A stretch of DNA of 64,000 nt, taken from Emiliania huxleyi CCMP1516 (lineage: Eukaryota). The notes below the pieces were generated by a model, which saw only the letters and a program-made list of their open reading frames with translations, had not been told where the DNA came from and searched no databases. This document shows positions 12,310 through 62,815 of this stretch, one piece after another. Within the stretch, counting starts at the first letter, position 1. Every line of letters starts with the position of its first letter. The DNA lies in contig NW_005201277.1 of NCBI RefSeq assembly GCF_000372725.1, positions 72,347 to 136,346 on the forward strand, given 5' to 3'. A program made the translations under genes and the position numbers.

Positions 12310-14060
12310 GTGCTATGCCGAGGCGGTGTGTCTTGTGAGCCTGTTTGTGTCTGTGTGTCGCTCGAGCGTGCCGTCCTCTTCTGTCCCGCGTCCCCACCCA
12401 GACCGCGCATGTGTCCAGTCCGAGCCTGGCTGTTCTTCACCTTCCTACCTACCTACCTAGGCGGTGGGCTGGGTAGACGCGGCGCAGCCGCCGCAGCTCG
12501 CGTGACCACCAGAGCCTGTTCACAGCTGCAGGTATGTATGTATTGTTCACAGCTGTATTGTTCACAGCTCGCGTGACCACCAGAGCCTGTTCACAGCTGC
12601 AGGTATGTATGTATTGTTCACAGCTGTATTGTTCACAGCTCGCGTGACCACCGGAGCCTGACTCGCAGAGGAGGCGAGGTGAGCCGAGGTGAGCCGAGGT
12701 GAGCCGAGGTGAGCCGAGGTGAGCCGAGGTGAGCCGAGATGAGCCGAGGAGTGAGCCGAAATGTGAGCCGAGATAGACGACTCGCTCCCCTGCGACTCCT
12801 CTCTCGGCTACTCTCTCGGCTCTCTCGGCTCTCTCGGCTCTCTCTCGGCTACTCTCGGCGACTCTCGGCGACTCTCGGCGACGTTCCGCCAACCTCGGCT
12901 GATCTCGGCTACTCTTCTCGCCCACTCTCTCACTAACGCCCGCCTGTCTCGCAAGGAGGAGTCGACCCAGACATGGAACCCGCGGCGGAAGGCCTGTTCA
13001 CAGCTGCAGGTGTGAAGAGACGCCGCCCACAGGCCGACGGCATGAAGAGACCAGGCGCCGCGACGCACCTGTTCACAGCCGGAGGTGTGAAGAGACACCG
13101 CCCACAAGCCGACGGCGTGCAGCCGTTGGCGTGGGAGAAACGCCTCCTCTGTGGCCACCTCTGCGATGCAGCCCGCCTGGAAAAAGAAATTCGCGCCGCG
13201 TGCGACCACGGGCACGCAACACAAGACTGGGACGCGTCTGCGAGGCAGCCCGCCTATATGCAGGTACAAAGAAGCCGCGCGTGCCTCCGCGTAGTTCTTT
13301 CCTGCCGCGCCTCCTGCGACCCAGGCGCGCCTCGAGCTGCGTGAGCAGTCCGGCCGTCTGCGCGTTGAGCCGCTCGTAGGTGCGCCTACAGGAAGGTTCC
13401 AGGAAAGGTCCAGGACAGGTCCAGGAAGAGGTCGCAGAGGAGCGGCTTGTAGGCGCGCGTCTCTGGCAGCGCGGCGCGGATGCGGTCCACGTCGATGCGC
13501 ACGAAGGACGAGAGGGGAAGCAGGCCTGGGGGGAGGGGACAGGAGTGGGCAGAGCGGAGAGAAGAGAGAGCAAAGAGCGGAGAGAGGAGAGCGGAGAGCA
13601 GACGGTAGAGAGCAGCGTCACCGTTCTCATCGAGCAGCTCCATCACGTGTGTCTTGCCGGCGCCCATACAGCCTGCCGTGAAAATGGCCCACGGCTGCGC
13701 GGGCGCGCCGACCGCGCCACGCCTCTGCTGCTGCCACCGCGACAGCACCTGCCGCAACCCCTGCAGCACGCCGCGGCCAGCCGGCGTGGCATGCTCAGCA
13801 CCGCCAACAGCGCCGTCGCGGAGCATTCGCCGGATGATGGCGTCCTGCTGCTCCTGGCGACGCAGCGAGTAGTGAACGTGCCACGAGTAGTCGAGCCGCG
13901 CACGTGACGCGGCGAATTCATGACGCAACGGTGCGGCCGGGTTGCGATGATTCTCAGACGTCGACCGGCGCCAGTCGTACCCGTCGTGGTCGTCGATGGC
14001 GCCGTGCCTCGTGCTGGCGATGCGGGAGGCGAGGGCGAGCGTCGGGAGGAGCAGGCTCAT
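11668..14060 (-). CDS. Zeta-toxin-like P-loop NTPase/kinase family protein (multi-exon)
   Basis: Walker [56 protein letters not shown]. Introns include 12994-13143 and 12081-12456. Confidence 0.75.
12329..12458 (+). mobile_element. Non-LTR retroposon 3' end, (CCTA)n-tail family, copy B (antisense in the zeta-toxin-like gene)
   Basis: Family sequence and tail. TSD AGGCGGTG at 12321-12328 and 12459-12466. Confidence 0.85.
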
Positions 14061-14099
14061 GTATGTGCCCTGTGCATCAACAGGGTTCACCCGAGAGCT

Positions 14100-14381
14100 G
14101 GGTTCCGGCTCCTACCGGATGGGGGTCTGTTCACAGCCTTGTTATTGAGAAGAAAATACCTCCTATGGCGCTGTGCGCTGGCCTGTGAGCTGACTCGCGC
14201 CAAAACGCCTACCTACCTACCTATCCCCAGGCCGCGCAGCGAAGCGAAAAAAGATGAAAATAGCGGGTACCTACCTATTGCAGGGCCCTTTTGGGCCAAA
14301 CAAGACCAACCTACCTACCTATCTGGGAGGGAGGGGCCAGCCAGTGCCACAGACCCCCTATCCGGGTAGGAGCCGGAACCC
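14100..14381. mobile_element. MITE, 282 bp, about 31-bp TIRs GGGTTCCGGCTCCTACC...GGGGGTCTGT
   Basis: 14100-14130 is the near-perfect reverse complement of 14349-14381. Internal CCTACCTACC motifs. It lies 40 bp upstream of the ATG at 14060. Confidence 0.85.
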
Positions 14382-15033
14382 AGCGTCGCCATACTCGACA
14401 CCCGATGCGTATAACCGATGCGCATAAAAGAATTTTAGAAAGTTTCTCGCAGCTAGCCGGGGGTGCAACACGCGCCGCTGGCGGTAGGGGGCAAGGCGGG
14501 CGAGCACTCGCCGTCGGCTGCTCGGTGCGCGACACGGTGCCAGAGGCGCCTCGAGAACAGTCACAGAGTGGTCGGAAGCCCGCCGCTCCCAGTCCCCCAA
14601 AAGAAGTCAGGTGCGCTGCAACCTCGCGCCGCCGCCGCCCGCCTGGCTAGGAGGGGAAGTCGACGCCGTTGCTCGGATCCACGGTGCACTCGACCGTGTG
14701 CTGATGGAACGGTGCGGGGTCAGGAGCCGCTGCAGGTCGCGAGCATCGACGCGCCGACCGACGACAACCTCTTTGGACTTTGCAGAGCCCGTGCTAACGG
14801 AGCCGCTGCCTCTCTCTCGCTCAACGGAGGAGACGCGCCGCTGCAGGTGTCGTCCGTCGTGCCGCTGCCGCCCGGCGACAACTGCCGGTGGCCCGATGCC
14901 ACCGTAGTGTACACAGGCGACCTCACGCACGCGACGGACGGTGACTCGTCGGTTTTTTTTGGTTCGTTCTTGTGGTTGATGAGAAGTATGAAAACGGGGT
15001 CCCTACCCACGCAAAAGAGCCGGAACCCAAACG

Positions 15034-18000
15034 ATGGTGGGTGCCGGTTCCCAAAGCTGCTTTGACGCGGTCGTGCTAGCGGCTGAGCGAGGCGAGGAGG
15101 AGGCGGTGCTGGCGTGGCTCGAGGGCGGCGGGTGGGCCGACGCGACGTGCGAGAGTGGCGGCGTGAGCGGCGTCACGCTGCTGATGGGCGCCGCCCGCTA
15201 CGGCCAAGAGCGGGTGGTCGAGTTGCTGCTGCAGCGCGGCGCGGAGATCAACCTGCAGGACAGTAACGGCTGGGCCGCGCTGATGTACGCCGCCTTCAAC
15301 GGCCAGGAGCGGGTGATCGAGCTGCTGCTCCGGCGCAGGGCGAAGGTCAACCTGCAGGACAGCAACGGCGCCACCGCGCTGTTGCACGCCGCCTACAACG
15401 GCTGCGAGCAGGTGATCGAGTTGCTGATTCGGCACGGCGCGGAGGTCGACCTGCAGATCAACGGCGTCACCGCGCTGATGGGCGCCGCCTTCCTCAACCA
15501 CCCCGCCGTCGTGCAGCGCTTGCTGCGGGCGGGCGCAGACGCGGCGCGCACTGCTAACGGCAAGACGGCGCTGCAGCTGGCCAAGGAAAAGGGCCACGCC
15601 GAGTGCGTCAAGGTATTGTCGGAGGCGGCGGCGGCTGCAGACGGCCGGGCAGGGGCGGGCGGCGCTTCCTCGGGCGCGGCAGCTGCAGCGGCAGCGGTGG
15701 ACGCGCCGCTGCTCAGACAGCGAGTCGTGCTCGGCGGGCTCTCTTCCCGCCCCGAGCTGAACGGGCAGTGGGGCGTGGCGGGGAGCTTCGAGGGCGGCCG
15801 GTACGCGGTGGCGCTCGAGGGCGGCGGCGAGAGCGTGCGGGTGCGGCCGGGTAATCTGTCGCTGGCGGCGGCGGAGCCGAGCGGTGGCGTGGCAGTCTAC
15901 GACGAGGTCGTGGCAGCGGCTGGGCGAGGCGACGAGGAGGCGGTGCTGGCGTGGCTTAACAGTGGCGGACGGGCCAACGCGACGTACGAGCAAGGCGGCG
16001 TGAGCGGCCTCTCGCTGCTGATGGGTGCCGCTGCCCACGGCCACGAGCGGGTGGTCGAGTTGCTGATACGGCGCGGCGCTGAGGTCAACAAGCAGAGCAG
16101 CAATGGCGTCACCGCGCTGATGAGCGCCGCCGTCCGAGGCCAGGAGCGGGTGGTCGAGTTGCTGCTTCGGCACCGCGCGGAGATCAACCTGCGGAACAGT
16201 GGCGGCTTCACCGCGCTTATTGACGCCGCCTTCAAAGGCCACGAGCGGGTGGTCGACTTGCTGATACGGCACGGCGCTGAGATCAACCTGCAGAACGGCG
16301 AAGGCGGCACCGCGCTGATTCTCGCCGCCGACCAAGGCCACGAGCGGATGGTCGACTTGCTGATTCGGCGCGGCGCTGAGCTCAATTTGCAGAGCAGCGA
16401 CGGCGGCACCGCGCTGATGAACGCCGCTTGCTTCAACCACCCCGCCGTTGTGCGGCGCTTGCTGCGGGCGGGCGCAGACACCGCGGCGCGCACTGCGAGC
16501 GGCAAAACGGCGCTGCAGTGGGCCAAGGAGCAGGGCCACGCCGAGTGCGTCGAGGCTTTCAAGAAGCACGTCCAGGATATGCTGGCGGGACGGCCCACGG
16601 CGACAGCAGCCGGCGGCGAAGGCGCGGGCGGCGCTTCCTCCGGCGGCGCTTCCTCGGCTGGATCGAGAGTCGCGAAGACGCCATCTCCAGCGGTGGCGGC
16701 GGGGCGGGCGCCGAGCGGTGTCGTGGCAGTCCCCGATGCGGTCGTGGCAGCGGCTGAGCGAGGCGAGGAGGAGGCGGTGCTGGCGTGGCTTGACAGTGGC
16801 GGGCGGGCCGACGCGACGTACGAGAGAGGCGGCGTGAGCGGCCTCACGCTGCTGATGGGCGCCACCGTGTATGGCCACGAGCGGCTGGTCGAGCTGCTGC
16901 TGCAGCGCGGCGCTGAGGTCGACCGGCACGACAGCAACGGCGACACCGCGCTGATGAATGCCGCCAGCCAAGGCCACGAGCGGGTGGTCGAGCTGCTGCT
17001 GCGGCGCGGCGCGGAGGTCGACCTGCTGAACAGCGCCGGCTACACCGCGCTGATGGGCGCCGCCGGCGAAGGCCACGAGCGGGTGGTCGATTTGCTGTTT
17101 CGGCACGGCGCGGAGATCAACTTGCAGAACGGCGAAGGCGGCACCGCGCTGATGGCCGCCGCCGGCCCGGGCCACGAGCGGGTGGTCGACTTGCTGACAC
17201 GGCACGGCGCGGAGGTCAACCTGCAGGACAGCGACGGCGTCACCGCGCTGATGGTCGCCGCCGGCTACGGCCACGAGCGGGTGGTCGAGCTGCTGTTGCA
17301 GCACGGTGCTGATGTCAACTTGCAGAACAGCAACGGTGGCACCGCGCTGATGATCGCCGCCATATTCAACCACCTCACCGTCGTGCGGCGCTTGCTGCGG
17401 GCGGGCGCAGATGATGCGGCGCGCAGTGCGAGCGGCGAGACGGCGCTGCAGTGGGCCAAGGAGAAGGGCCACGCCGAGTGCGTGCGCACCCTCGAGGAGC
17501 ACACGTCGAGCACAGCAGAGGCTGAGGGGGAGACGGCGGTCGCAGAATCAGCCGAACAGGTCGCGGCGGCCGCACGCGAGGCGGGAGCGGCAGCGGTGGC
17601 GGCGGAGGCGCGCGATGCTGCCGAGGCTGCGCTGCGCGAGGCGGTTGAGGCGTGCGAGCGAGGCGACGCCGATCTCGAGGCGCTCAGGGCGGCGATCAAC
17701 GCAAACACCGAAGCCGCCGACGGCTCGGAGGCGCTGCGGGCGGCGCGGCGGCTGCGCGACGAGCTGGCGGAGCGAAAGGTCCGCGAGGCCAGGGCGCTGA
17801 AGCGGCAGCGGCAGAAGGAGGAGAAGGCGGCGGCGAGGCAGGCGGAGGCGGCGGCGCGGGCGGCGGAGGAGGAGGCGCGGGCGGCGGACGAGGCGCGGGC
17901 GGCTGAGGCAGCTGCGGCGGCGCGGGCGGCGCGGGCATCGGAGGAGGCGGATGAGGCGGCGCGGGCGGCGGAGGAGGCGGAGGCGGCGTCGCGGGCAAGG

Positions 18001-19305
18001 GAGGAGGCGGAGGCGAGGGCAAGGGAGGAGGCAGAGGCGAGGGCAAGGGAGGAGGCAGAGGCGAGGGCGAGGGAGGAGGCGGCAAGGGAGAGGGAGGAGG
18101 CGAGGATGAGGGCGGAGGCGGCGGAGGCAGCGGCGGAGGCGGCGGCTGTAGAGGCGGCAGTGGCGGCCGTGGCGGCGGCGGAGGCTCAAGAGGCGGCGGC
18201 AGCGGAGGCGGCGGCAGCGGCAGCGGCAGCGGCAGCTGCGGCAGCGTCGGCGGCGGCGACTGTCGCCGCCCTCGCCACCGCCGCCGCGCCGCCCGCTGCC
18301 GTCCCTCTCGACGAGCTCATCGCGGCGACCGACGGCTTTGCCGAGGCGCGCAAGGTGGGCGAGGGAGGCTTCGGGCGCGTCTACCGCGCCGACGCGCTGC
18401 CGTCTCTCCCGCGCGTCGCTTGCGGGTTCGCCGTCAAGACGGCGTTGGTCGGTGTCGGCGCCCAAGGCCTCACCGAGCTGCAGAGCGAGGTGCGCACGCT
18501 CAGCACGGCGTGCCACCCGTCCCTGCTCCCTCTTCTCGGCGCTTGCCTGGCGCCGGCGAGAGCGTGCCTCGTCTACCCCCTCTGCCGCGGCGGCAGCCTC
18601 GAGGACCGCCTCTACCGCGCTCCAGCCGCGCTGGAGCGGCTCCGCATGCTCGGCTTCGAGACGCCGCCTCCGCCGCTCTCCTCTGCCGCACGGCTCCGCG
18701 TGCTGCGCGACGCCGCAAGCGCGCTGCACTACCTGCACACGCGCTCTCCGATGATCCTGCACCGCGACGTCTCGGCGGGCAACATCCTGCTCGACGAGCG
18801 CGGCAACGGCTACCTCGCCGACGTGGGCCTCGCGCGCGCGGCAGAGGCGACGGCCGGCGGCAGCCAGCAGGTGTCGCACCTGTCGACGCAGCGCCTCTTC
18901 GGTAAGCTTGGGTACATGGACCCGATCATTTCGCAGAGCGGGCAGGCGTCAGCGCTGACCGACGGCTATGCGCTCGGCATCACGCTGCTCGTCGCCTTGA
19001 CGGGCCGCGGCGCCGTCGGCCTCCTCGACGAGTGCGACGATGCGCTTGAGGAGCCCGACACGGCGGAGGGATCGATCGCGGCGGCCGACGCGGGCTGGTC
19101 GGCGGCGCAAGCCGAGGAGTTGGCGCGGCTGGTGGTCGGGCTGGCTCTTGTGAGGAAGAAGAGGCGGATGCCGCTCGCAGAGGCGCTGCCGCGGCTGGAG
19201 GCGCTAGTCGAGGCGGCGGGGGAGGTGGAGGAGAAGGTTGGGGCCGAGGAGCGCCAGTGTGACCTCTGCTACGACGCGCCGCGCTCGGTCCGTTTCGCGT
19301 GCGGC
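15034..19305 (+). CDS. Multi-ankyrin (3 modules) / SH3-like insert / coiled-coil / RLK-Pelle(IRAK)-like kinase / RING protein, 3' end lost in the gap
   Basis: Three ankyrin arrays. Kinase motifs ELIAATDGFAEARKVGEGGFGRVY, FAVK, LVYP..GGSLEDRL, HRDVSAGNILLD, DVGLAR, GKLGYMDP. RING start CDLC...FACG. The start codon is uncertain. Confidence 0.9.
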
Positions 19306-24784: not shown

Positions 24785-27700
24785 ATGAGCGGACCCTCCT
24801 CTTCCGCGCCTGTCCGCACCCAGCAGCGCTGTCAGTTTTGGGCCGCCTTGTTCGTGCTGCTCGGAGCGTGCGGCGGCGTGCTGCTCTCGGTGCGGAGGAG
24901 CAGCTCGGGGCGCCTCGTGCGGTGCCGGACGGGGGCGAGGCGTGGCGCGTGGCTGCTGATTCTCGCCGCGCTGCTCCCGCTGGCATGTGCACCATCAGTC
25001 TACACGTCTGGCTCGGGCGAGTCTGGCTCTGGGGAGATTGGCTCTGTTGACATCGATCCGTCGCCATCTCCCGAGCCGTCGCCAGCTCCATCGCCCGAGC
25101 CGTCACCGTTTCCCGAATTTCCCGAGCCGTCGCCCGAGCCTGAGCCGTCGCCGTCTCCCGAATTTCCCGAGCCGTCGCCCGAGCCTGAGCCGTCGCCGTC
25201 TCCCGAATTTCCCGAGCCGTCGCCGCCGCCGTACCCTCCGCCGCCGCCGCCGTCCCTTCCGCCGCCGTCCCCGCCGCCGCCATCAGTCCACACGTCTGGC
25301 TCGGGCGACTTCCAGGTCACTGTGGGTGGCGGTAGCTATCCGTCCGATGTGTCGTGGGACCTGACGTGCAGCGGCGCGTTGATCGGCAGTGGAGGGGCCC
25401 CCTACTTTGGCACCCTGTCCGCGCCGCCCGGCGAGTGCACGCTCGACATGTACGACTCGTACGGCGACGGCTGGACCGGCAACGAGTGGAAGGGTGCGGG
25501 CTATACGTTCACGCTCGGCTCCGGATCCTATGGCAGCGAGACGTTCATCCTCGCCCTCCTCCCTCCGCCCTCTCCGTCGCCGCCGTCGCTGCCGCCGCCG
25601 GCGCCGCCAATCGACTTCCAGGTCACTGTGGGTGGCGGCGACTGGCAGTCCGATGTGTCGTGGGACCTGACGTGCAGCGGCGCGTTGATCGGCAGTGGAG
25701 GGGCCCCCTACTCCGGCACCCTGTCCGCGCCGCTCGGCGAGTGCACGCTCGACATGTACGACTCGTACAGCGACGGCTGGACCGGCAACGAGTGGAAGGG
25801 TGCGGGCTATACGTTCACGCTCGGCTCCGGATCCTATGGCAGCGAGACGTTCATCCTCGCCGCCCTCCCTCCGTCCTCTCCGTCGCCGCCGCCTCTGTCG
25901 CCTCTGCCGCCGCTCTCCCCGGACTTTGTCGCCGCGGCGAGCGAGGCCGAGCTCCGCTCCCTGATCACGGAGGCTGCTGCTTCGCAAGCCAACGTCGCAA
26001 TCTACCTGCCGTCCAGGGCAGACTTCAAGCTGGGCAGCCAGATCAGCTGCTCCTCCGACATCAAGGTGACCGTCGCGAGCAGCGGCGAGGGCGCGACGCT
26101 CGACGGCCGGGGACAGATCGGGCTCTTTTACCTCTCGGGCGGCTGCAGCCTCACCCTGCGGGGGCTGAACCTCGTCAACGGGAGGGCGACAAACTACGGC
26201 GGCGTTGTGTACGCGAGTGGCGCAGGCGACGTCGAGATCATCGATTCGGTCGTGAGGGACTGCTCTGCTGGCTATGTGCGCCGCGTAGAGCTAGCCGCAC
26301 TCCAGCAGCGCCGCACGGTAGCGGGGCGAGAGATAGAGAGGGCCACGGCTGCCTCACCCCGCTCTCTCCTCGCAACCGCAGGCCGGCGGCGGCGTCTTCG
26401 CGCAGTACAGCGGTGTGGTCTCGATCATCGACTCAGATGTGTCGGACTGCTCTGCTTCTTATGTGCGCCGCGTAGAGCTAGCCGCACTCCAGCAGCGCCG
26501 CACGGCAGCGGGGCGAGATATAGAGAGGGCCACGGCTGCCTCACCCCCGCTCTCTCTTCGCAACCGCAGTTCGGCGGCGTCGTCAGGGTGGATAACAGCG
26601 GTGCGGTCTCGATCATCAACTCGGATGTGTCGGGCTGCTCTGCTGGCTCTGTGCGCCGCGTAGAGCTAGCCGGCCTCCAGCAGCGCCGCACGGTAGCGGG
26701 GCGAGAGATAGAGAGGGCCACGGCTGCCTCACCCCCGCTCTCTCTTCGCAACCGCAGTTCGGCGGCGTCGTCAGGGTGGATAACAGCGGTGCGGTCTCGA
26801 TCATCAACTCGGATGTGTCGGGCTGCTCTGCTGGCTCTGTGCGCCGCGTAGAGCTAGCCGGCCTCCAGCAGCGCCGCACGGTAGCGGGGCGAGAGATAGA
26901 GAGGGCCACGGCTGCCTCACCCCCGCCCTCTCCTCGCAACCGCAGGAGGGCGGCGTCGTCTACGCGGAGGACAGCGGTGCGGTCTCGATAAGCGGCTCGA
27001 ACGTGACGAGCTGCTCTGCTGGCTCTGTGCGCCGCGTAGAGCTAGCCGGCCTCCAGCAGCGCCGCACGGTAGCGAGGCGAGAGACAGAGAGGGCAACGGC
27101 TGCCTCACTCCCGCTCCCTCCTCGCAACCGCAGTACGGCGGCGTCGTCTCCGCCAATCAGAACAGCGGTGTGGTCTCGATCATCGGCTCGGCCGTGACGA
27201 GCTGCTCTGCTTCTCAGGTGCGCCGCGTAAAAAACTAGCCGCCACCCCTGCAGCGCCGCACGGCAGCGGGGCGAGAGATGTAGAGGGCCACGGCTGCCTC
27301 ACCCCGCTCTCTCCTCGCAACCGCAGTGGGGCGGCGTCGTCTTCGCGTCTAACAGCGAGTCCCTCTCCATCGCGGATGTCGACTTCACCGACAACAGAGC
27401 CAGCCTCTCAGGCTCGGTGCTGTACCTTTCAAACACGCCCTCCTCGATCAGCGCCGCCTCCTTCACCGGCAACACTGCTGGCGACGACACGACGATACAG
27501 ACCGACAAGCCGATAGACTGGGACTGCCGCTTGGGCAGCTGGATGCGGCACCAGGGCTCCTTTTTTGGCGACTTCAGCGTCCCCGAGTGCAACCTTTGCC
27601 CCGCTGGCTACTATGGGAACAGGAGCGGCCTCACCAACTCCTCCTGCGAAGGTGCGTGTAAGCGAGGCCACTTTTGTCCCAAGGGCACAGCGGAACCGCT

Positions 27701-32789: not shown

Positions 32790-33958
32790 AGGTGACGAGC
32801 AACTTTGCAGTTCGGCTCAAGCGGCAAGGGTTGGATCGCGCTAACCACTTCCAAGAGTTGCGCTGCGTTGGCATAGGGCGTTTTATGTAACATGCTGAGG
32901 CTTCCTCGTAACGACGAGCTAACATATTAGAGACGACTCTCTCTCATCCCCACTGTGAACAGTCGGGATCTGTATCTGCGCAGCTAAATGTATAGAATTT
33001 TACAACAAAATGTATAGAAAACGCTAAACGGCAGGGAGTTAATGAATAGCGCTCTACATTTTTACCACAAGCGCACAAGGCGCGCGCTGCATATCGATAT
33101 CCCTCTACAGGGCCCGCAATAATACGCAATCGCCCGCGCGCTCCCGCGCGCTCAGGGATGTCAGTACCCACGCCGAGGAGTACGGAACCGCCCCGTACGA
33201 CCTCTCCCGAGCACTTTTCTCACTATATCCTTATCGTATGAAACACTTGTTGGGTTACCACGTCTCTTCCTCTAAGGAGAGGAGAGGCTCGGCGTCCGGG
33301 TAGCCGTCGTACTCGACCGCATCCACACGAGCCGGCCGCCCGAACCCTCCTCCCGCCACGTGATGGTGGCCGACCACCCTGCTCGCCTAGGATCTCGACG
33401 TGCGTGCCTGTCTCGACGACAGCGTGCCCGGCCAGCCTCGCCGTCGCGTCCAAGCGCAGCCGCTCCGCCGCGCCTCCTGCGTCTCCGCGGGCTGCCGCAG
33501 CACATAGTGTCGGCCGTACTCCGCCACGCCCGCGAGGACGTCAGCCGCTCACCGTCTCGACGCCGCCTCGATTGGCGGAGGGGCTCGACCCGTGGTTCCG
33601 TGACCTACCGCGCCAGCGAGGGCTCCTGGTGCGCCGCCCGTCGGTCGACGCCCTCGCCCCTGCGCTACCAACGACGCCGTCGCTGTCCTCGCCGACGTGA
33701 CCGTGATCCGAGGCCGCTCATCCACGCCGAGAGCAAAATCCAGAACGACGCGCTCTTCGACGGGGGCTCGGGGTACGGGTGGGATTCCCCCTCGGGGGGC
33801 GGCGCTTTCTTCTAGGCGCCCGCCTTGACCCAACATAGAGGGCGTTGTGTAGCCTAGCTTTTGGGTAATATAACACAAATCCAGAACCCAATACGAGCCG
33901 ACCCCCCCCCTTTGACCCCCCCCTCTTGGACGCGTCCACCCTCCGTCCAATCGAGCCG

Positions 33959-36242: not shown

Positions 36243-37389
36243 TCACGCAAAATTGAACCAGCCCGTCATGATGCGCTTCTCCTGCGTCGGCGACGAGACG
36301 CCGCGGTGCATGAAGGTCCAGTCGGACGGCCAGACGAGCGTCAGGCCCTTCTTGGGCTGTATCGTCACGTTTTGGTGGAAGAACTGCGTGCCTGCGGCAG
36401 ACACGTCTCGGACGCGTCATGGACGTGTGAGTGGACGTGTCGGGCCGGCGGGCACCACTGCGTGCCCCCCTCGTCGCTCACGTCGTTCAGGTACGTCATG
36501 AACACCAGGTGCCGCGACGCACCTGTTCACAGCCGGAGGTGTGAAGAGACGCCGCCCACAGGCCGACGGCATGAAGAGACCAGGCGCCGCGACGCACCTG
36601 TTCACAGCCGGAGGTGTGAAGAGACACCGCCCACAGGCCGACGGCATGGAGAGACCAGGCGCCGCGACGCACCCGGCTCCATCCGGCCGTTCCTCTCCGT
36701 GTGGTAGATCTTATACCCGCCCCCGGGCGGGTAGTACTGGTAGTTGGTCGTGCACGAGAGGCCCCAGGGCGAGACGTGGTTGGCCGCGTACGGGTACCTC
36801 GCCGTGTACTTCATCGTGCACGCCTGGAGCGCCGTCACGTACCTCCGCCACTCGATCCGAGCGTCGTCTGGCTGGAAGGAGTACTCCAGCGACTCTTTGG
36901 AGGTCGGGTCAATGACCGCGCGCCCGTCTCTGCCCACGACGCCGGGCGCCAGCGCACCCGGGTCCTTCTCGAAGAGTGCGACGAGGCCGTCGCACACGCT
37001 CTCGTCCTCGATCAGGTAGGCGCCCATAAACATCGTGTTGACTCCCTCGCCCGAGGGAAGCGCGTGCTCCGAGATCCGGAAGCTCTCGCTCACCGTCGCG
37101 AGCGGCGGCGGTGCAGACGGCCTGGGCGCGGGCTTGGAGGCGCCGAAACCGCCGCCGCCTGAGTCAGGAGGGAGGACAGCATCAGCCTCGCTGTGTTTGG
37201 TGGGGAGGGAGGCGAGGCGAGCCCAGCGCGGCCGGCGCCTGCCTTCTTTCTACTTTTTGTGGCCTTCTTCGTCTGCGCCAACCGCGCCTCGGCTCGGCTC
37301 GAGCTCCGCGAAGCTGCAAGCGGCCGGAAGGCGGCGGTGTTGCTATGGAGGAGCGCGACCGCGATCAGGCTAGACGCCAGGGCGATCAT
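36243..37389 (-). CDS. 2-oxoglutarate/Fe(II)-dependent oxygenase (prolyl-hydroxylase-like) with N-terminal targeting peptide
   Basis: NYQYYPPGGGYKIYHTER (HxE), RHLVFMTYLNDV..EGGT.F, PKKGLTLVWPSDWTFMHRG, EKRIMTGW. Introns 37159-37238 (GC), 36523-36672 and about 36393-36463. Confidence 0.9.
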
Positions 37390-41226: not shown

Positions 41227-44200
41227 ATGCACGCCTCCCTGTTGCGAGCCGCTCTCGAGGAGACGGCGTGCAGCCTGCAGTGGCAGCCTTTTGCCTCGCT
41301 CCGCGGCGCAGAGGGTCGCTACACGGTGAACACAACGTCCGGCTTCATCCCGGACGGCTCCGAGATCGACCTAGTGCCCGAGAACCGCCACCTCTTTCGG
41401 GGCAGCACGCCGGCGCCACGGTCTGACGCGGAGGCGCTCGCACGGCGCGCGAGCGTGCTTCCTCGCGGCGAGCTGCTAGCCGGCGTGTGCACGAGCGCTG
41501 CCGCGCCCGATCCGGAGCAGGCCGACGACAGCTTTGCGTTTGGAGTGCACGGAGTAGACGGGCGTCCGTCAGGGCCCGGGCCAGACGCTTCGCTCGCCAT
41601 CGGCAGTGCGGGCGGGGAGAGCGACACCGGCGGCGGCGGCGGCGAGTGGCACACAGTCCGTGTCGGGCCGATGGAGTCGACCGGAGGGTTCGACTTTTGG
41701 TTCCTGGGGTGGGACGACTTTGCGGTGATCTCGGCATATCCCTCGTGCCATCTCGGGCGATCTCGTGCCATCTCGGGTGATCTCGGGCCATCTCGCCGTC
41801 GCGCAGGGGCTCAGTGAGCCGATCGCAGCACACGGCGCCGTCTGCGCCACGGGCGCGCTCATCACCCTGGTGCGAGATATGGGGAGATATGGGGAGATAT
41901 TGGGAGATATGGGGCGCGCTCATCACCCTGGTGCTCCCTTGATATACCCTAAGCTCCTCCGAGACCTCGCGAGCGGGCAGTTATTCACAGCGGGCAGTGT
42001 GGGATGGGCGGGGGTGGGCAGTGTGGGTTTCACACCCGGGGCAGGTAGGGGATCTAAAAGGCCAGTTGTGCGGCAGTGTGCGGGCAGTGTAGTACGGCAG
42101 GGCAGGGCAGGGCAGGGCAGGGCATACTACTTAGAGAGGCGGAGACACACTCTGACCAGCCACACTGCGGTACGGGTGGGGTGCAAGAGAGGCGGAGGGA
42201 ACTGTCACACGGGAGCGGCACACAGACACAACGAGCAGCCTTGAACTCTTCCCCCGTGCGTGGACTGTGGGCTCCAACTGGGCTGCCAGGTGGACGAGGC
42301 CGGGCGCCCGATCGGCCAGCCGCCGCTGCACATCCACCATGCCTTTCTCAACCTCGAGAGCAGCGGCAGCCGGCACCACACCACCGACACGCGCGCCTGC
42401 CTCCTGCTCGGCCGGCGCTGCCCTGGAGGGGCGGCGATGTTTGCTGGTGCGGCCGACTTCGAGCAGCTGCAGCGCGTCTTCTCGATGCGCCTCACCGTGG
42501 AGGAGCCTCTGAACGCGCGCGCCATGGTCAATGACGCCCGGCCGCGCGGGTCGGCGCCAATGCGGTGGTACGTCCAGCTGTCGCTACGCACGTCCGCCGG
42601 CCGCTGCGAGGCGCGAATATCTCCCCACATCTCCCATATCTCCCCCATATCTCCCCATATCTCGCAGCCGCTCGACGTCCTCGTCTCCTAGACACGGAAC
42701 ATCTCCCCACATCTCCCGTATCTCCCCCTTATCTCCCCATAGGACGCGCACTCCGTCGTGTCGGTCTTCCACCCCGGGCTGCTCTCCAAGTTCACCACGC
42801 TGCAGGTGCCCGCATGCCGACACGCACGTCCCACCCGCAGCACACATACTCAGGGGCGAGGGACGGCAGCACAACTCCTCGCCGCGGGGCTAGCACGGCG
42901 TGGCAAGCCGGCCGGCGGGCACCGACACCCTCCCGGACCTCCCCATATCTCCCCATATCTCCCCGGATCTTCCCATATCTCCCCATATCACCGGCGGACT
43001 TCGACCGACACCCGCCCGGATCTCCCCATATCTCCCCATATCACCAGAGGGGCTTCGACCGACACACCGCCCGGACCGGTGACACTAAATGGCAGCGGAG
43101 TTGCGCGTGTCTACTGCAGGTGCGAGATATGGTGAGATATGGGGAGATATGGCGTCTACTACAGGTGCCCGCCACCGAGGACTCCTTCTACTACTACACC
43201 TTCCGCCTCCCGTTTTCGGGCTCGCTGCTGCCCCCCGGCAGGGAGCGCGAGGCGCCGCCGATGCTGCACACGCCCCCCTCCCCCCCCGGCCTTCATTATA
43301 GCTCATTATAGTTCTTCTTCTTCTTCTTGATTTCGTAGGCGCCGCCCATGCTGCACACGCACCCCGGCCTTCATTGTAGCTCGTTCTAGTTCTTCGTCTT
43401 CTTCTTCTGAGTTCGTAGGCGCCGTCGATGCTGCACACGCACCCGGCCTTTCTTCAGCGTGTCTTCCTTCTCAACGGCTCGCCGTCCTAGAAGCGGAGTA
43501 CCTCCCCATATCTCCCCATATCTCCCCATATCTCCCCATATCTCCCCATATCTCCCCATATCTCCCCATATCTCCCCATATCTCCCCATATCTCGCGCCT
43601 AGAAGCGGAGTACGCACTCTTGTCTCCCAGCCAGCGCCCGAGAGGACACGGACTCAGCTGCACTCGGCCGTGGCCCGCGGTCTTCCCTGCATTCGCCTCC
43701 CTCGTATCCACGCGGTGCCCTTGAGTACACCGCGCACAGCCGCCCCGAGGCTGGCGTATGCGAAGCGAAGGCACCCCGTCGCAGCTCGCCCTCCCCGCGC
43801 TACCCCCGTTTTGCTCGTGGCTCGGAATCGGCGGCCGCGACTGCACGCTGCCGCCCACCGCCGCCGCGGCCACCTCCAACGCGCGACTCGCTGCGGCGGC
43901 GGAGCGGCGCTTCCAGCCGTGCCGCCAGCGGCCGCGCTCGTCTGCCATGCCGCGCGTGGGCGAGCTCGCTTGCGACGCGTGGTCCTTTGAGCGCGGGGAC
44001 GCGGTCACGCTGCTCGCTCTCTTCGGGCCAGGCAACACGAGCGGGTGGAGGGGCATGGCGGCGTGGGTGCCGCCGGGGTGTGAACGGCGTCTCTTCACAG
44101 CGGCAGCTGTGAACAGGTGGAGGGGCATGGCGGCGTGGGCGCCGCCGGGGTTGAACGGCGTCTCGTCACAGCGGCAGCCGTGAACAGGTGGAGGGGCATG

Positions 44201-44464
44201 GCGGCGTGGGCGCCGCCGTCGCTGCTCCACGAGGCCAAGGCGGCGGAGGCGGACTTTTTGCGCAAGGGGGGGCGGGACGGGTTTGAGCGGGGGGGGTTCG
44301 GCTACCTAGAAGCGGAACACGCAGTCTTGTCTCCCAACCGGCGCTCGAGAGGGCACGCACTCCGCTGTACTCGGCCGTATTCCGCTGTGTGCCCTGTATT
44401 CGCCTCCGTTGTATTCATACGGTGCTCTGAATACGCTGCACACAGTACCGTCTTCCCGCCCTGA
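41227..44464 (+). CDS. Uncharacterised multi-exon protein with His-rich motifs, boundaries uncertain
   Basis: Exons with PPLHIHH, VNDARPRGSAPMRWYVQ, MLHTHP and CDAWSFERGDAVTL, separated by introns filled with (GGGGAGATAT)n/(ATATCTCCCC)n. Confidence 0.45.
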
Positions 44465-44798
44465 GGTTGGCGTCTTCAGCACGTAGGCTCTACTACCCCA
44501 GCCACGTCACCGTCTACCTGCGCGCGCGCGCCGCCGACGGCAGATCGCACTACCCCTTCCTCTGGGCGGGGCCCGACGGAGGCTGTGGCGGGGTGTGAAC
44601 GGCGTCGCTTCACAGCGGCAGCTGTGCACAGGCGGGCCCCGACGACGGCGCCTTCGAGCCAACCTTTTGGGCGCCGTCCGACGCGCTCGCGCTCGCGCTG
44701 CTCCCGTTCGCCCCGACCGGCGCCTTCCGCCTCCTCTCCTCGCGGCGCCTCTCGCTCACGCCGGCACTCGTCGCCCTCGTCGCCCTCACCGCCGCTCT

Positions 44799-49554: not shown

Positions 49555-49585
<31 letters not shown>

Positions 49586-51179: not shown

Positions 51180-51199
51180 GGCGTGAAGCAAAAGGCTGG

Positions 51200-53140
51200 A
51201 TGGCCTACTGTTCATCAAACCAGTTCAACTCGGCATTTGTGCTCGTGCTCTTTGGCGCCGTCCTTCTGCTCTCCAGCCTCGACGTGCAGCCCGCACGCGT
51301 CGCCGACGTGCGGTGGACGCGCAGCGATGACGGGCGCCGGCCGGCCGCTTTGGGCGTTCACGACCGGACTTCGGAGGGGCCGCGAGCGGAGGACGCGCGG
51401 CTGAGGGCCAGCCTTCCAGCTAACCGTCCCGCCGTCGGCACATGCGAGTCGCTCGAGTGCGCGGCGCGGCTTGGAGTGAGCGAGCCGTCGTGGGTGGACC
51501 TCACCTTCCAGCCGCGAATTGACTGGAGGGGCGGCGGCGTGCGAGGTGACTGTGTCGCCGGTGAGCTCGAGTACATCATGCCCAAGTACTGCTCTCCCCG
51601 CGCCAAGAGGGCGGGCGGGTGGCCTTCTGAGGCGCGGCTGCGCGAGGCGGACGTGCACGCGAACGGGCTGCCGCAGGCGGGAGAGATGGGGAGAGAAATG
51701 GGGAGAGAGATGCCATGGGGAGAGATGGGGAGAGATGGAGAGATATGGGAGAGCGAGATGGGGAGAGATGGGGAGAGATGGGGAGAGAGATGGGGAGGGG
51801 TGATGAGAGCTGGACGTGCACGCGAGACGGGCCGCGGAGTCGAGACGAGATGGCCCGAGAGATGACCCGAGATGACCCGAGATGACCCGAGATGACCCGA
51901 GATGACAGGGAGGGCACGAGCCGGGAGCAACAGCCGCGCAGCAAACGAGCACCATAAATTGTGACGCCTTCCTGCTGCGCCTCTCTCTGAGGAAAACTCC
52001 TGGCCTGCCGCAGGCGGGCCTGGGCGAGCTGGCTGCGCTGCTGGGCGGCAAGAGCGCTGCTCGTGGTGCGAGACTCGGTATGGAGCAGGTTTGACCAGAA
52101 GAAGACTGTGACAACCCTAGGCAAGACGCTGCTCGTGATGGGCGACTCGGTGATGGAGCAGTTTTACAACACGCTGCAGTGCCTCGCGGCGAAAGAGTCG
52201 CTCAAGGTGCGAGATAGGGGGAGATATGGGGAGATACGGGGAGATACGGGGAGAGGTGCAGTGCCTCGCGGCGAAAGAGTCGCTCAAGGTGCGAGATAGG
52301 GGGAGATATGGGGAGATACGGGGAGATACGGGGAGAGGTGCAGTGCCTCGCGGCGAAAGAGTCGCTCAAGGTGCGAGATAGGGGGAGATACGGGGAGATA
52401 CGGGGAGATACGGGGAGATACGGGGAGATAGGGGGAGAGGTGCAGTGCCTCGCGGCGAAAGAGTCGCTCAAGGTGCGAGATACGGGGAGATACGGGGAGA
52501 TACGGGGAGATAGGGGGAGATACGCCCCCCCTCCCTGGAAGCGATGATTGAGTGCGCCTGCTCCAAGCGACCGCCACTGTGCCACACCGGAGTCCGCTTC
52601 CCCCCCCCCCTCGCTCAAGGTGCGAGATATGGGGAGATATGGGGAGATATGGGGAGGTGTGCCACACCGGAGGCCGTCCGCTCCCCCTCCTCACTCATGG
52701 TGCCCCACTCGACCCAATTAGTTATTAATTAACTGTTAATTAAATGTTAATTAACATCGAGGCGCCCCACTCGGCCTCGCACGAGTCCTTCCTCCCCATA
52801 TCTCCCCATATCTCCCCATATCTCCCCTCAAGGTGCCCCACTCGGCCTCGCACGAGTCCTTCCTGCTCGCGACCAAGCCCCTCTGGAACAGAGGCAAGCG
52901 GAAGAAGCCGCCCAAGCTGCCCGTCGAGGTGGCCAGCGGGATGCGGATGACGTAAGCTGGTGTGAACAGCGAGCGTCTCTTCACACCTCTAGCTGTGAAC
53001 AGGTGGCCAGCGGGATGCGGATGATGTATGCGCGCGTGACGACGATGCAGCCGGACGAGGTCGAGGCGGCAATTGGCTCGGCCGACGTTGTGCTCCTCAA
53101 CTGGGGACTTCACTACCAGGTGGACACACACACACACACA

Positions 53141-53175
<35 letters not shown>

Positions 53176-54089
53176 GCACCCCGCCCACCCACGCGCGCGC
53201 GCACCGGGCCTTGCACCTTTAGTGCCGCGGGGCTCCTGTCGTCTAGACGTGGAGACGCGAGGGTCGCCTGGCCCCTGCCCCACCACCTCGTGTGCTCACC
53301 TTACCCACCAGGAGATGGACGGCTACCGCACGGACCTGCACCACTCGATGGCACGCCTCGAGGCCTTCGCGGCGGAGCCGGGCCGGGCGGCGCTCTTCCA
53401 GGAGACGGGCGCGCAGCACTTCAAATCGTCAGACCGGCGCGGCTATGCCACCGGCGAGTGGGAGCAGCGCGACAAGAGCAGCGACAAGCTCTGCTCGTGC
53501 CAGCGGACGGAGGACTTCAACGTCAACACGCGCAACCGCGTGCTGCATGAGGCGAGCGAGATGCAGCCGAGATGCAGCCGAGATGCAGCCGAGATGCAGC
53601 CGAGATGCAGCCGAGATGCAGCCGAGATGCAGCCGAGATGCAGCCGAGGTGTTAGCGCCGAGAAGCAGCGCCGAGAAGCAGCGCAACCGCACGAGTCAGA
53701 GAGATTGTGTGCAGCCCCCCCCCCCCCCCCCCGCCCAAAGGTGCTCGGCTCGGGGTCCTACCCGCACGTGAGGCTCCTCCCCTTCTACAACCTCACCCTG
53801 CCGCGCTGGCGCCCCCCCCCCCCACGCGCGGCACTGCCCTTGCTCCCCTGCGAGCTGGGTCTCCTCACACCCGCCGTGCGCTCTTAACAGGCGGTGGCAC
53901 TTTGGAAACTGCACGCACCGCCCCAACGGGTGGAACTACGACACGTGCTGCGACTGCACCCACTTCTGCTTCTCGCCGGCGATGTGGGGCGCCCACCTGC
54001 ACAGCCTGCTCGCGGTTCTGCGGCGTACGGCGGTCGCGGAGAAGCCGGCCGAGACCGTGCGCGAGAGGGTCGCGCGAGGCGCAGCTTGA
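51200..54089 (+). CDS. PC-esterase / TBL-like (SGNH) acyl-esterase/acyltransferase, type II membrane anchor (multi-exon)
   Basis: N-terminal TM, LLVMGDSVMEQFY, VLLNWGLHY, FQETGAQHF and DCTHFC (DxxH). Stop at 54087-54089. Confidence 0.88.
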
Positions 54090-55629: not shown

Positions 55630-55742
55630 CTCAGTGTTGGGCGGGGAGATCTTTTGTAAAATTCTTCTGGATGACGCACGGGACCACATTTGGAGCACTT
55701 GTTCGCGAGATCCCGACGAACCCACAGGACCCTCGTCCGCAT

Positions 55743-57559: not shown

Positions 57560-57699
57560 ACTCGCCGCAGCAGCCGGAGGCATCGCCGCAGCACTGTCTG
57601 CGCCGCAGTCACGCACCCGTCGACGAAGCTCCCCCCGCGGAAGACCGCGCGTAGCGACGCCTTGACGATCGAGATGAGCGCGCTTGAAGCTCGCCCACC

Positions 57700-59545: not shown

Positions 59546-59577
59546 CCACTCCACACCGCGCGAAAGCGACCGCAACA

Positions 59578-60131: not shown

Positions 60132-60166
<35 letters not shown>

Positions 60167-61813
60167 TGCCGCCACCTCCGCCGTCGCCGCCGCTGCCGCC
60201 GCCGCCCCCGCCGCCCCATACGCCGCCCCCCCCGCCGCCTCATACGCCACCACCGCCGCCGCCGCCTCCAACGCCGCCGCCACCGACCCGCCCTCCGCCT
60301 GGCCTCTGGCATGACCCGATCGAGGGCAGCGACGGATGCTGCAGGACGGATGCCGTGGGCGTCAGCACGCCTCATGCGAGCACCTTTACCCGCGCGTGGG
60401 CCGCCGGCCTGGAAGAGTGCAAAGGCAGGTGCCTCACACACCTGCAAACATGCACCGCCATCGGGTACAACAGAGTGAGCCAGGCTTGCGAGGTGCACAC
60501 CTCCCCCGCAGTCGCCCACACGGCGGCGGGAACGCCGTGCACGTGTCTGCTCTTCAAGACGGCGCCTCCGCCGCCGGGTGCCCCGCCGCCGCCACCAACT
60601 TCGCCGCCATCGACGCCTCCGCCGCCGCTGCAACCACCAACTTCGCCGCCGGCCGTGAGGCTCATCCTTGACACCGACATGGGGTGTGGCGCTTGCCGCG
60701 ACGTCGACGACGTCGTTGCCTTGTGCGCCCTCCATGCGCTGGCGGACAACGGCGAGGTGGAGCTGCTCGCAGTTGTGCAGGACAGCGCGCCGCCCGCAGG
60801 AGCAGGCGTCATCTCTGTGGTGAACCACTTCTACGGCCGCGACCACATACCGATTGGCGCGTACAAGGGGTCTGGGCTGACGCTGGCGGGAGAGCCTCCG
60901 CTCACGTTTGTCGACAGTGTCCTGAAAGCCTTCCCTTCGCCGATCCGGAACGCCTCACAGGTGCCGGACGCCGTCGACGTGTACCGGCGCGTGCTCGCCG
61001 CCTCGCCGCCGCGTTCAGTCACAATCGCGTCTGTCGGTCTGCTGACGAATCTGGAGCTCTTGCTTCGCTCGGGCCCCGACGCGCATAGCCCCTTGGACGG
61101 CCCCTCTCCCTCATCAAGCAGCGGCCTAACACGTGGAGAAGTGCTCGTTACTGTCTCTGAGAGCCTCCCCTGTAGGCTACGCTTTGGTGGCCGAAAAGGT
61201 GGCTCTCCTCTCAATCATGGCGGGAGACTACCCGACGAGCGGGCCTCGCTTCGCCGAGTGCAATGCGTGCGGCTGTTTCAACGGCGCGGACGCCGTCTCC
61301 AGGGCGACCGCCGCAGCCGCGTCCTCTTTCGTCGCAGCAAACGTGCCGCCGTCCGTCCGTACCATCTACCTCGGGTGGCGCGTCGGGGACGTGGTGCGGA
61401 CTGGCGCGGTGATGGAGCTGTGCGCAGCGCCGGCCAACCCGTGCCGGCACGCCCTCCTCGTAGCGAGCAAAGTAGTTCCACGCGCCCACGCGACCAGCGA
61501 CACAGGTGACGCGGCCTTACGGTGTGGACTCTAGGCACGCCCTGATGGACTTTCGCGACCGGGCGGGCTGGGGGTGGGGCCCGGGAGGCCGCTCCAGCTA
61601 CGACCCGCTAGCCGCCCTCCTAGCGGTGCGCGGAGTCAGCCGCGAGGGCGTGGGCTTGAGCGAGTGCACGCAGTGCGACGGCGTCAACTCGATCGACCCA
61701 AAGAGCGGCAAGAATGAGTGGTTGCCGGGGCGGCGAAGCAACCAGAGCTATGTCGAGCTCACGGACCGGATGAGAGCGCAAGAAGCGATTGATGCGCTCC
61801 TCTGCCAGCCACG

Positions 61814-61848
<35 letters not shown>

Positions 61849-62815
61849 TGCCGCCGCTGCCGCCGCCGCCGCCCCATACGCCACCGCCGCCGCAGAGCGG
61901 CGGCGAGAGCGTGCTCGTGCGTCCGGGTCACCTCTCCGAGGTGGCGGCTGCTCCTCCAGTGCCGCCCGTGCCGCCTGCGCACGTCGCCAAGGGCGACACG
62001 CCGTCGGAGAGTGCGACGCCCTCGTGGGAAGGCCTCCTCGCCCGCATGGCCAGCCGCATGGCGCAGTCGGTTGGCCAGTCCCTCGCGGAGGCCCTTGAGC
62101 TCGACGCGGCAAGCGGCGTGCAGCGGCGGCTGCTGGGGAGCGTCGAGCTCTCAGCCCTGCTCGGAGCCGTCGCCGCCGGCTGCTGCGTCGCCTGCCGCCA
62201 CCGCCGGCGGCGGCGGCGAGAGAGGCGGTTCGATCAGCTCGCCGACGAGCCTGACCAGCCGGACCACCAGGAGCTGCACGGCGAGGGGAGGTCCGAGGCT
62301 TTTGGCACCGAGCGCAGGAAGAAGCAGGTGGCGCCGCAGCGGGGAGACCGCGTCACAAGCTGCTGTGAACAGCGTCTCTTCACACCTCTAGCTGTGAACA
62401 GGTGCCGCAGCGGGGAGACCGCGTCAAGCACGGCAGGCGCGGCGAGGGCACGGTGGCCGAGCTGCTGCCCGACGGCCGCTCGCGCATCGTCTTCGACGAG
62501 GAGGAGGAGCACGGCGAGCACCGCTACATCGGGCAGCTGGAGGGGGCAGCGCCGCTCGACTCGCCGCAGCGGCGGCAGGCGACGCGGTCGCACGTCGAAG
62601 AGGCGGCACGGCGAGCGAAGCTCGAGGCGAGCGCCGCGGCCGGCAGGCGCGCGCTGAAGGAGCTGCAAAAGGAGCAGGCACGGCAAAAGGAAGCGCAGCA
62701 GGAGGCGCAGACCCGCCAGCTGCTGCGGGCGCTGGCGCTCGGCCAGACGCAGCCCAGCCTTGCCCGGAGCCCCAGCCCGGTCCGATCCCGTAGCCGGTCC
62801 CTGCCCATCCCGTAG
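59578..62815 (+). CDS. Cys-rich domain / Pro-rich / PAN-apple-like / inosine-uridine nucleoside hydrolase domain / TM / charged tail protein (multi-exon)
   Basis: LILDTDMG....DVDDVVAL, IPIGAYKG, SVTIASVGLLTNL, GRSSYDP. PAN-like LEECKGRCL....CTAIGY....CEVH. Hydrophobic LSALLGAVAAGCCVAC followed by RHRRRRRR. Confidence 0.82.

What the first reader, a model, noticed from the sequence alone, without database searches (positions are those of the whole stretch)
12515..62401. Introner-like family: 69-75 nt units made of an exon duplication (donor) plus a shared hairpin/acceptor cassette ending GCTGTGAACAG
Seen in at least five unrelated genes: 52929-53002 (74 nt), 62328-62401 (74 nt), 44045-44116 + 44117-44187, 36523-36672 (2x75), about 12515-12650 (2x69), 12994-13143 and a variant near 44565-44631. 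In most units the first 20-30 nt copy the start of the downstream exon (e.g. GTGGCCAGCGGGATGCGGATGA at 52929 and 53003) and supply the GT/GC donor. The rest is a shared cassette, usually TGTGAA...CGTCTCTTCACA (stem-loop)...GCTGTGAACAG, supplying the acceptor. Splicing removes one duplicate plus the cassette and restores the protein. Established: Introner elements in other algae co-opt a TSD for one splice site. Inference: an intron-generating element with unusually long duplications and no TIRs, or a repair/conversion process that spreads an acceptor cassette.
Basis: partly seen in the sequence, partly recalled or inferred. Interest (0 to 1): 0.78.

Follow-up and report, generated by a model that had tools for sequence, protein, structure and literature searches.

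The report
Introns built from copied acceptor ends
In the alga Emiliania huxleyi many short introns consist of a 20-35 base copy of the next exon joined to a shared 40-base intron end, likely made when DNA break repair copies the end of an existing, often nearby intron, a route to new introns that published searches for intron families would filter out.

Summary
The feature is real. Three window introns of this family are spliced exactly in RNA contigs and kept in DNA-type runs. A metagenome scan gave 125 more loci; 116 of 149 units carry a duplication of the downstream exon that starts at the donor. Unit length is 69 +/- 4 nt. The cassette's 3' end is fixed at the acceptor; its 5' end is ragged and joins the duplication through microhomology (20 of 27 direct junctions, null 18%). 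Neighbouring copies share spacer variants (10 of 29 pairs against 8%), and the 12994 intron is a 124/129 copy of the 36523 intron, exon duplicate included. Other introns have the same duplication with unrelated fillers. Relatives read through three tested positions; one relative breaks at one of them. Best reading: repair of a staggered break with a templated copy of an existing intron's 3' end, not a transposon with defined ends. It works like an Introner but fails the TIR, short-TSD and end-to-end tests. E. huxleyi 70-nt Introner families are already tabulated without mechanism and may overlap. No empty allele was seen; DNA versus RNA template is open.

The parts
52929..53002 (+). Family intron, 74 nt, GT..AG: 26-nt copy of the next exon (52929-52954) plus cassette
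   Evidence: Sequence; removal gives an open frame; not among the 15 of 420 joints shown, so splicing not seen directly
62328..62401 (+). Family intron, 74 nt (GT) or 71 nt (GC at 62331): 25-nt duplication plus cassette
   Evidence: Sequence; both cuts keep the frame; no reads laid here
44045..44187 (+). Two tandem units (72 + 71 nt), 31-nt duplication, spliced as one 143-nt GT..AG intron
   Evidence: RNA contigs of X10 and X13 (two studies) skip it; X3 and X4 show no such joint
44566..44631 (+). Family intron, 66 nt, GC..AG, acceptor variant GCACAG; shares the rare spacer GCGGCA with 44045 in the same gene
   Evidence: RNA contig of X10 skips it; an X3 contig spans it unspliced; spacer counts
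36523..36672 (-). Two tandem 75-nt units in a 2OG-Fe(II) oxygenase gene, spliced as one 150-nt GT..AG intron; source of the 12994 copy
   Evidence: RNA contig of X10 skips it, X12, X2, X6 show no such joint; removal restores MEPGASRHLVFMTYLNDV as in homologues; Pfam PF13640
12994..13143 (-). 150-nt GC..AG intron: 21 nt of its own plus 129 nt copied from the 36523 intron, including that gene's exon duplicate and unit order
   Evidence: 124 of 129 identical, no gaps; removal keeps the frame; no reads laid here
12516..12657 (-). Two 71-nt units (duplication plus a variant cassette without the core) added at the acceptor of an existing intron that starts at 12943
   Evidence: no reads laid here
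36392..36465 (-). 74-nt GC..AG intron with a 10-nt exon duplication and an unrelated filler
   Evidence: RNA joint in X10, 10 letters fit both sides; restores EGGTQFFHQ
37159..37238 (-). 80-nt GC..AG intron with a short exon duplication and an unrelated filler
   Evidence: RNA joint in X10, 6 letters fit both sides
52762..52832 (+). 71-nt unit: 32-nt exon duplication plus a 10-nt microsatellite filler ending in AG (same anatomy, other filler)
   Evidence: splicing not seen directly
44296..44486 (+). 191-nt GT..AG intron filled by a second dispersed repeat family, with a degenerate short duplication
   Evidence: RNA joint in X10; related copies at 43598-43757 and in 9 loci

Best explanation
These are spliceosomal introns made of a 20-35 nt copy of the downstream exon plus the last ~40 nt of another intron, likely born when a staggered DNA break in an exon is filled in and joined through a templated copy of an existing, often nearby, intron's 3' end. 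Shown: the anatomy, exact splicing at three sites, microhomology at the duplication/cassette junction, copying between host introns, resemblance of neighbours. Inferred: fill-in of both overhangs makes the duplication; the left end primes on the template by 1-4 nt of microhomology and copies through the acceptor; because every template acceptor is followed by a donor-like G-Y-G exon start, rejoining favours duplications that begin at a usable GT, GC or GA donor; selection keeps events that restore the frame and reach about 63 nt or more. Each new intron is then a template, so the family grows copy by copy without a master element. The same reaction inside or at the end of an old intron rewrites it (12994, 12516).
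For: 116 of 149 units have an anchored duplication above the best of 40 random pairings; 102 of those 116 start GC, GT or GA. In 85 first units: length 68.7 +/- 4.3, duplication 28 +/- 7, insert 41 +/- 7, G at donor -1 in 86% but A at -2 in only 28%, so a bare duplication could not be spliced. Microhomology >=2 nt in 20 of 27 direct junctions, null 17.7%. Identical spacer in 10 of 29 same-contig pairs against 505 of 6299 other pairs, permutation p 0.0002; shared 5' extension >=4 nt in 5 of 29 against 217 of 6299, p 0.003. Direction shown once: the sequence carried into 12994 is native coding sequence of the gene 23.5 kb away; a unit of the L016 gene recurs on the opposite strand within 0.5 kb and in L086; foreign second units also in L044, L028, L052. 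With the cassette masked, 15 of 45 two-copy repeats have spacing 65-74 nt, with AT-rich, microsatellite or unique fillers. Relatives that carry introns of their own elsewhere read through the 36523 site (P0004, P0005 clusters) and both L030 sites (P0090, P0098 on 653-kb and 66-kb contigs); Chrysochromulina-cluster products on 19-78 kb contigs are unbroken. [quoted passage not shown]
Against: No empty allele was seen in 4 DNA-type runs (the joint table showed 15 of 420), so no birth was caught. Only 27 of 74 junctions are direct; the rest have 1-12 nt of filler whose source I could not trace. A narrower neighbour test was weak: 4 of 19 identical spacers (p 0.04), mean spacer distance p 0.18, whole-cassette distance p 0.85; pairs in both tests are not independent. 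All five introns with captured foreign units have degenerate duplications of their own, so those captures may be later conversions, not births. Duplication decay does not track cassette decay (rho 0.06). P0007 (55% identity) breaks right after the 36523 position and may have an intron there. L086 has no shared base after the acceptor. The fixed 3' end is partly built into my search pattern; of 50 core hits not chosen by it, 24 kept the 3' arm at the same spacing. No repair enzyme was tested.
Confidence: 0.5

Rival explanations
1. RNA-templated version: the excised intron, whose 3' OH lies exactly at the acceptor AG, is reverse transcribed at a nick (target-primed) or partly reverse-spliced into the target; the cDNA is 5'-truncated and joined by microhomology, and a second nick 20-35 nt away makes the duplication.
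For: Fixed 3' end at the AG, ragged 5' end, 5' microhomology and variable long duplications are the geometry of target-primed retrotransposition (recalled). Arrays are excised whole, so a lariat would carry internal units, as the 12994 copy does; it stops exactly at the parent's acceptor. Post-splicing spliceosomes stay catalytic (PMC10996645, passages).
Against: Donors 23.5 kb away in another gene and on the opposite strand 0.5 kb away suit DNA proximity better than a diffusing RNA. Copies run past the likely branch point near -20 (inferred from the sequence). No poly(A) or simple tail. No partner enzyme could be sought without the genome.
Confidence: 0.2
2. Two-step history: introns arise as duplication plus any filler, and the cassette later overwrites their 3' parts by ectopic conversion. 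The cassette then marks rewriting, not birth.
For: Same duplication with unrelated fillers. Rewriting is visible at 12994 and 12516. 33 of 149 units lack a clear duplication. No link between duplication decay and cassette decay.
Against: In 27 of 74 first units the exon copy runs straight into the cassette, and 29 of 74 duplications are still identical to the exon over 18 nt, leaving little time for a second event. Conversion needs homology that a unique filler lacks.
Confidence: 0.17
3. A tiny non-autonomous transposon or SINE with a master copy elsewhere inserts the cassette (classical Introner), with unusually long target-site duplications.
For: One splice site carried, one co-opted, as in Introners. 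A 26-nt imperfect inverted repeat ends at the acceptor, as TIRs do in Symbiodinium elements (10.1101/2020.10.14.339549, first quarter read). Several inserts extend into a second copy of a 29-nt unit (L036, L080, L097, L100), which could be a master's tail. A ~67-nt E. huxleyi family has a Repbase hit to Novosib-1_EmiHux.
Against: No fixed 5' end, duplication 10-35 nt and variable, 46 spacer variants in 149 units, local resemblance, capture of host exon duplicates, and the same anatomy with other fillers. No match in viral contigs or Rfam.
Confidence: 0.11
4. Assembly or repeat artefact, or old introns with chance similarity.
For: The genome is rich in tandem repeats.
Against: Seen in independent metagenome assemblies, in DNA-type runs and as exact RNA joints.
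Confidence: 0.02

Closest known systems
Introner elements (Micromonas, Aureococcus, Symbiodinium, Polarella; surveys PMC9860276 and PMC12130899)
   Same: Many related introns at unrelated positions; 3' splice site carried, 5' site taken from the duplicated target; exact splicing.
   Different: Published TSDs are 3-9 bp and fixed per family (PMC9860276, passages); here 10-35 nt and variable, making up about 40% of the intron. No fixed 5' end, no terminal repeat pair, copies taken from host introns.
E. huxleyi Introner families listed in those surveys
   Same: 2022 table: two families of mean length 70 nt (19 and 158 copies, TSD and TIR '?'). 2025 table: fam24, about 70 nt, 5 members, 'co-opt 5' carry 3'', '10bp terminal direct repeats', and fam11, about 67 nt, 6 members.
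   Different: Their sequences were not in the files I could search (the motif had 0 hits; files 13 and 14 of the 2025 paper were not searched, the 2022 file was cut), so identity is untested. The main texts do not mention the species. The 2022 method demands similarity starting within 10 intronic bases of both ends, which most units here fail.
[quoted passage not shown]
   Same: Direct repeats flanking a gained intron; filler from elsewhere; no element needed.
   Different: There the repeats are short and fillers one-off; here the repeat is long, supplies the donor, and the filler is a recurring intron 3' end, which makes the process self-feeding.
Tandem genomic duplication of an AGGT exon segment (reviewed in PMC3443670)
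   Same: An exon duplicate supplies the donor.
   Different: The acceptor comes from foreign sequence; only 28% of sites have A at -2.
Local propagation of short introns in Oikopleura; reverse-spliced fungal introner-like elements and stwintrons
   Same: Copies resemble neighbours (Oikopleura, as cited in 10.1101/051292); internal symmetry (PMC8469720).
   Different: Those are whole-intron copies, and the fungal ones have no flanking duplication; here only the 3' part is copied and a long duplication is the rule.

Membership tests
Introner (TE-derived intron family) | Similar introns at many unrelated gene positions | tested here: met
   7 window sites, 125 metagenome loci, 113 distinct full sites
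Introner (TE-derived intron family) | Similarity between copies reaches both intron ends | tested here: not met
   Column consensus falls to 31-53% beyond position -41; the 5' part copies the local exon
Introner (TE-derived intron family) | Short TSD of fixed length (3-9 bp) | tested here: not met
   Duplication 28 +/- 7 nt
Introner (TE-derived intron family) | Terminal inverted repeats at both element ends | tested here: not met
   Inverted repeat is internal; the 5' boundary varies from about -30 to -52
Introner (TE-derived intron family) | One splice site carried, the other co-opted from the duplication; exact splicing | tested here: met
   3 of 3 family introns with a visible RNA joint are removed exactly
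Introner (TE-derived intron family) | New positions, absent from relatives; presence/absence polymorphism | tested here: inconclusive
   3 positions read through in intron-bearing relatives, one relative breaks at one of them, L030 relatives may be paralogues; no empty allele in 4 runs
Introner (TE-derived intron family) | An autonomous element with matching ends | not testable with these tools
   No genome held; viral contigs gave 0 matches
Non-LTR retroposition (target-primed) | Fixed 3' end, 5' truncation with microhomology, variable TSD (features recalled) | tested here: met
Non-LTR retroposition (target-primed) | Poly(A) or simple-repeat tail and a master RNA | tested here: not met
   Inserts end at the acceptor AG; no Rfam match
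Intron gain by break repair with templated insertion | Direct repeat plus templated filler with junction microhomology and nearby templates | tested here: met
   weaker
Intron gain by break repair with templated insertion | Dependence on end-joining enzymes such as polymerase theta | not testable with these tools
   Needs the genome and experiments
Tandem genomic duplication (AGGT) | Intron consists only of duplicated exon, AG present in the original site | tested here: not met
   About 40 nt of foreign insert; A at -2 in 28%
Reverse-spliced introner-like elements | Whole intron copied, no target duplication | tested here: not met
   116 of 149 units have a duplication

The most novel reading that the evidence does not exclude
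Excised introns seed new introns directly: the free 3' end of a spliced-out lariat is joined to or copied at a nick in an exon, only its last ~40 nt are fixed in DNA, and a long target duplication supplies a new donor. Thousands of E. huxleyi introns, including the microsatellite-filled ones, would then descend from intron tails by a chain reaction that needs no transposon.
Probability: 0.2. Interest if true: 0.92.

Novelty: new variant of a known kind. Interest (0 to 1): 0.74.

Why it matters
Most gained introns have no recognisable source. Here both halves of the intron can be traced: the 5' half to the adjacent exon, the 3' half to other introns, in one case to a named donor gene. If the window is typical (7 sites in 64 kb) the family numbers in the thousands (extrapolation, not a count), against tens to hundreds in the published tables, and the 2022 survey's rule of similarity at both ends would discard it. 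That points to a class of mass intron gain that genome surveys are blind to, and it makes the break-repair versus reverse-splicing question testable by sequence alone in a species with many sequenced strains.

Tried and rejected
No whole genome was held, so no census. Viral contigs: 0 matches. Rfam: 0 matches in the window. Earlier findings of this scan: none in three look-ups. Folding: no unusual stability, so a structural role for the hairpin is unsupported. First neighbour test weak (its second half crashed and was rerun). First scan for other duplication-type introns had confounded controls, because antisense images of the cassette were counted; redone with masking, where the dinucleotide control stays weak (AG|G 11 of 21, CG|G 9 of 21) and the spacing peak is the main signal. 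All-against-all comparison of loci found the same site in several assemblies but no presence/absence difference, as expected from how they were chosen. Filler tracing found no parent except the captured units. Summed contig depth over the cassette was about 1000 times the flanks in X3 and X4, but the tool warns it is no copy number, so it is not used. L079, L102 and L115 look like chance matches in AT-richer DNA; L079 and L102 were in the pool and were dropped, all three. Paper searches found no description of this anatomy; the library lacks most subscription papers, including the E. huxleyi genome paper, whose remark on 10-11 bp repeats in introns I only recall.
Full report
Observation. All seven cited places hold the units. 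The core motif occurs 9 times in sense form against 0.01 expected. Corrections to strand, lengths and two special sites are in the observation check. The host is Emiliania huxleyi: an exon of the 36523 gene is 100% identical to a protein whose cluster holds E. huxleyi entries.

Splicing. An RNA contig of run X10 skips 150 nt at 36523-36672 with GT..AG ends; X12, X2 and X6 show no such joint (15 of 420 joints were displayed, and 52929 was not among them). On 43940-44765, where all 10 joints were shown, RNA contigs from two studies (X10, X13) skip 44045-44187 and X10 skips 44566-44631; X3 and X4 do not. X2 and X3 have no library record and are treated as DNA from their behaviour. Removal restores one reading frame in both genes and the conserved motif MEPGASRHLVFMTYLNDV. 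No reads were laid on 12516, 12994 or 62328.

Family. One metagenome scan returned 125 loci and estimated about 430 stored stretches. Of 174 motif matches, 149 had enough flank after removing identical rows; 116 of 149 have a copy of the downstream exon anchored at the intron start, scoring above the best of 40 random pairings. 108 of the 116 are 58-84 nt long, 8 are double length; length modulo 3 is even (42, 34, 40). After the acceptor, 138 of 149 exons begin GC, GT or GA. In 85 first units the duplication is 28 +/- 7 nt (a few overestimated in arrays), the insert 41 +/- 7 nt, the total 68.7 +/- 4.3 nt. The cassette is an 11-nt arm, an 18-nt middle holding an inverted copy of the arm and a variable 6-nt spacer, and the arm again. 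Similarity ends near -41; some inserts continue into a further copy of the 29-nt unit.

Junctions. Among 74 non-array first units, 27 join duplication and cassette directly; 25 of 27 share at least 1 nt and 20 of 27 at least 2 nt across the junction, against 46% and 17.7% in a null of random joints. 29 of 74 duplications are identical to the exon over the first 18 nt; mean difference is 8%, so the family spans a range of ages. Only 28% of sites have A at donor -2, so most duplications could not have been spliced before an acceptor arrived; I infer that duplication and acceptor came in one event.

Source of the cassette. The 12994 intron is 21 nt of its own followed by 129 nt matching the 36523 intron at 124 positions, with the two units in the parent's order. 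The carried duplicate is native coding sequence of the 36523 gene, which fixes the direction. A unit of the L016 gene recurs on the opposite strand within 0.5 kb and in L086; L044, L028 and L052 also hold a foreign second unit. These five recipients have decayed duplications of their own, so the captures may be later than their births. Across 113 sites, same-contig pairs share the spacer in 10 of 29 cases against 505 of 6299 (permutation p 0.0002) and a 5' extension of 4 nt or more in 5 of 29 against 217 of 6299 (p 0.003). A narrower first test gave 4 of 19 (p 0.04) and no signal in mean distances.

A general route. The two other introns of the 36523 gene also begin with a copy of the next exon (10 and 6 letters fit both sides of the RNA joints). 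With cassettes masked, 15 of 45 two-copy repeats in 123 kb of loci have spacing 65-74 nt out of a 40-200 range, with AT-rich, 10-nt microsatellite or unique fillers. The cassette is therefore one successful filler of a wider class.

Gain or rewriting. At 36523, DNA-called relatives at 69-72% identity run through the site and break eight codons later at an intron of their own; Chrysochromulina-cluster products on 19-78 kb contigs are unbroken; P0007 breaks right at the site and may share the position. At two cassette sites in L030 (HMG-CoA synthase-like), P0090 and P0098 carry in-frame introns elsewhere and run through both; they may be paralogues. That these proteins are DNA read-throughs is inferred from intron-like inserts and contig length. 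At 12516 the units extend an old intron's acceptor. No empty allele was found.

Mechanism. I favour end-joining repair of a staggered break with a templated copy of an existing intron end (0.5). Paired nicks yield tandem duplications and templated insertions (PMC11081867, passages; PMC7407515, passages), and donors in other genes or on the opposite strand nearby suit a DNA template. A lariat-templated route has the same geometry (0.2; PMC10996645, passages). Later overwriting of older duplication-type introns (0.17) certainly happens at some sites. A conventional element (0.11) fits least.

Comparison. It works like an Introner of the 'carry 3', co-opt 5'' type but fails three tested features (Membership tests). 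E. huxleyi is already listed with ~70-nt Introner families of 5-158 copies and unknown mechanism (PMC9860276 and PMC12130899, supplementary rows); their sequences were not visible, so overlap is possible, and unseen supplements bear on the novelty claim. The 2022 method requires similarity near both ends (passage). Also seen: passages of PMC3443670, PMC8469720, PMC11282704, the first quarter of 10.1101/2020.10.14.339549 and the first half of 10.1101/051292. Nine searches found no account of this anatomy.

Verdict. A real, spliced, widespread intron family with traceable parts; a new variant of known gain routes; interest 0.74.

Noticed in passing
window 44296-44486, 43598-43757; L003, L031, L041, L052, L119: A second dispersed repeat of about 180 nt fills a spliced 191-nt intron and recurs in several loci; another filler family with a short decayed duplication.
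   Followed up: partly
window 52690-52832; L049, L060, L071, L093: Duplication-type units with AT-rich fillers made of TTAATTA-like words, in a genome of 65% GC.
   Followed up: partly
window 12516-12657; L078, L074, L044, L066: Minisatellites of 13-30 nt built from halves of the cassette (TGTGAAC or CTCTTCACA words), suggesting the cassette and intronic minisatellites share an origin.
   Followed up: no
window 11900-14060, minus strand: Intron-rich P-loop gene with a below-cutoff match to Pfam Zeta_toxin; holds both atypical family sites.
   Followed up: partly
window 14127-14137 (minus) and 32952-32962: Isolated copies of the terminal arm without core or duplication; may be chance.
   Followed up: no
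window 53858-53890: Degenerate cassette-like acceptor, possibly an old family member.
   Followed up: no
window 26236-27357 and 52175-52524: Tandem arrays of 188-nt and 82-102-nt units that look like exon-intron units expanded by unequal crossover; L005, L096 and L117 show such an array with another filler at one site in three assemblies.
   Followed up: no
window 7644-9902 and 14992-19300: Long frames with 99-nt (33-residue) ankyrin-like repeats; family name recalled, not scanned.
   Followed up: no
proteins P0003 and P0031: Two database proteins of the 36523 gene read into the 74-nt GC-donor intron, which suggests retention or missed annotation of that intron.
   Followed up: no
L003, L013, L032: Four to five cassette introns within 1.5 kb of one gene.
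   Followed up: partly
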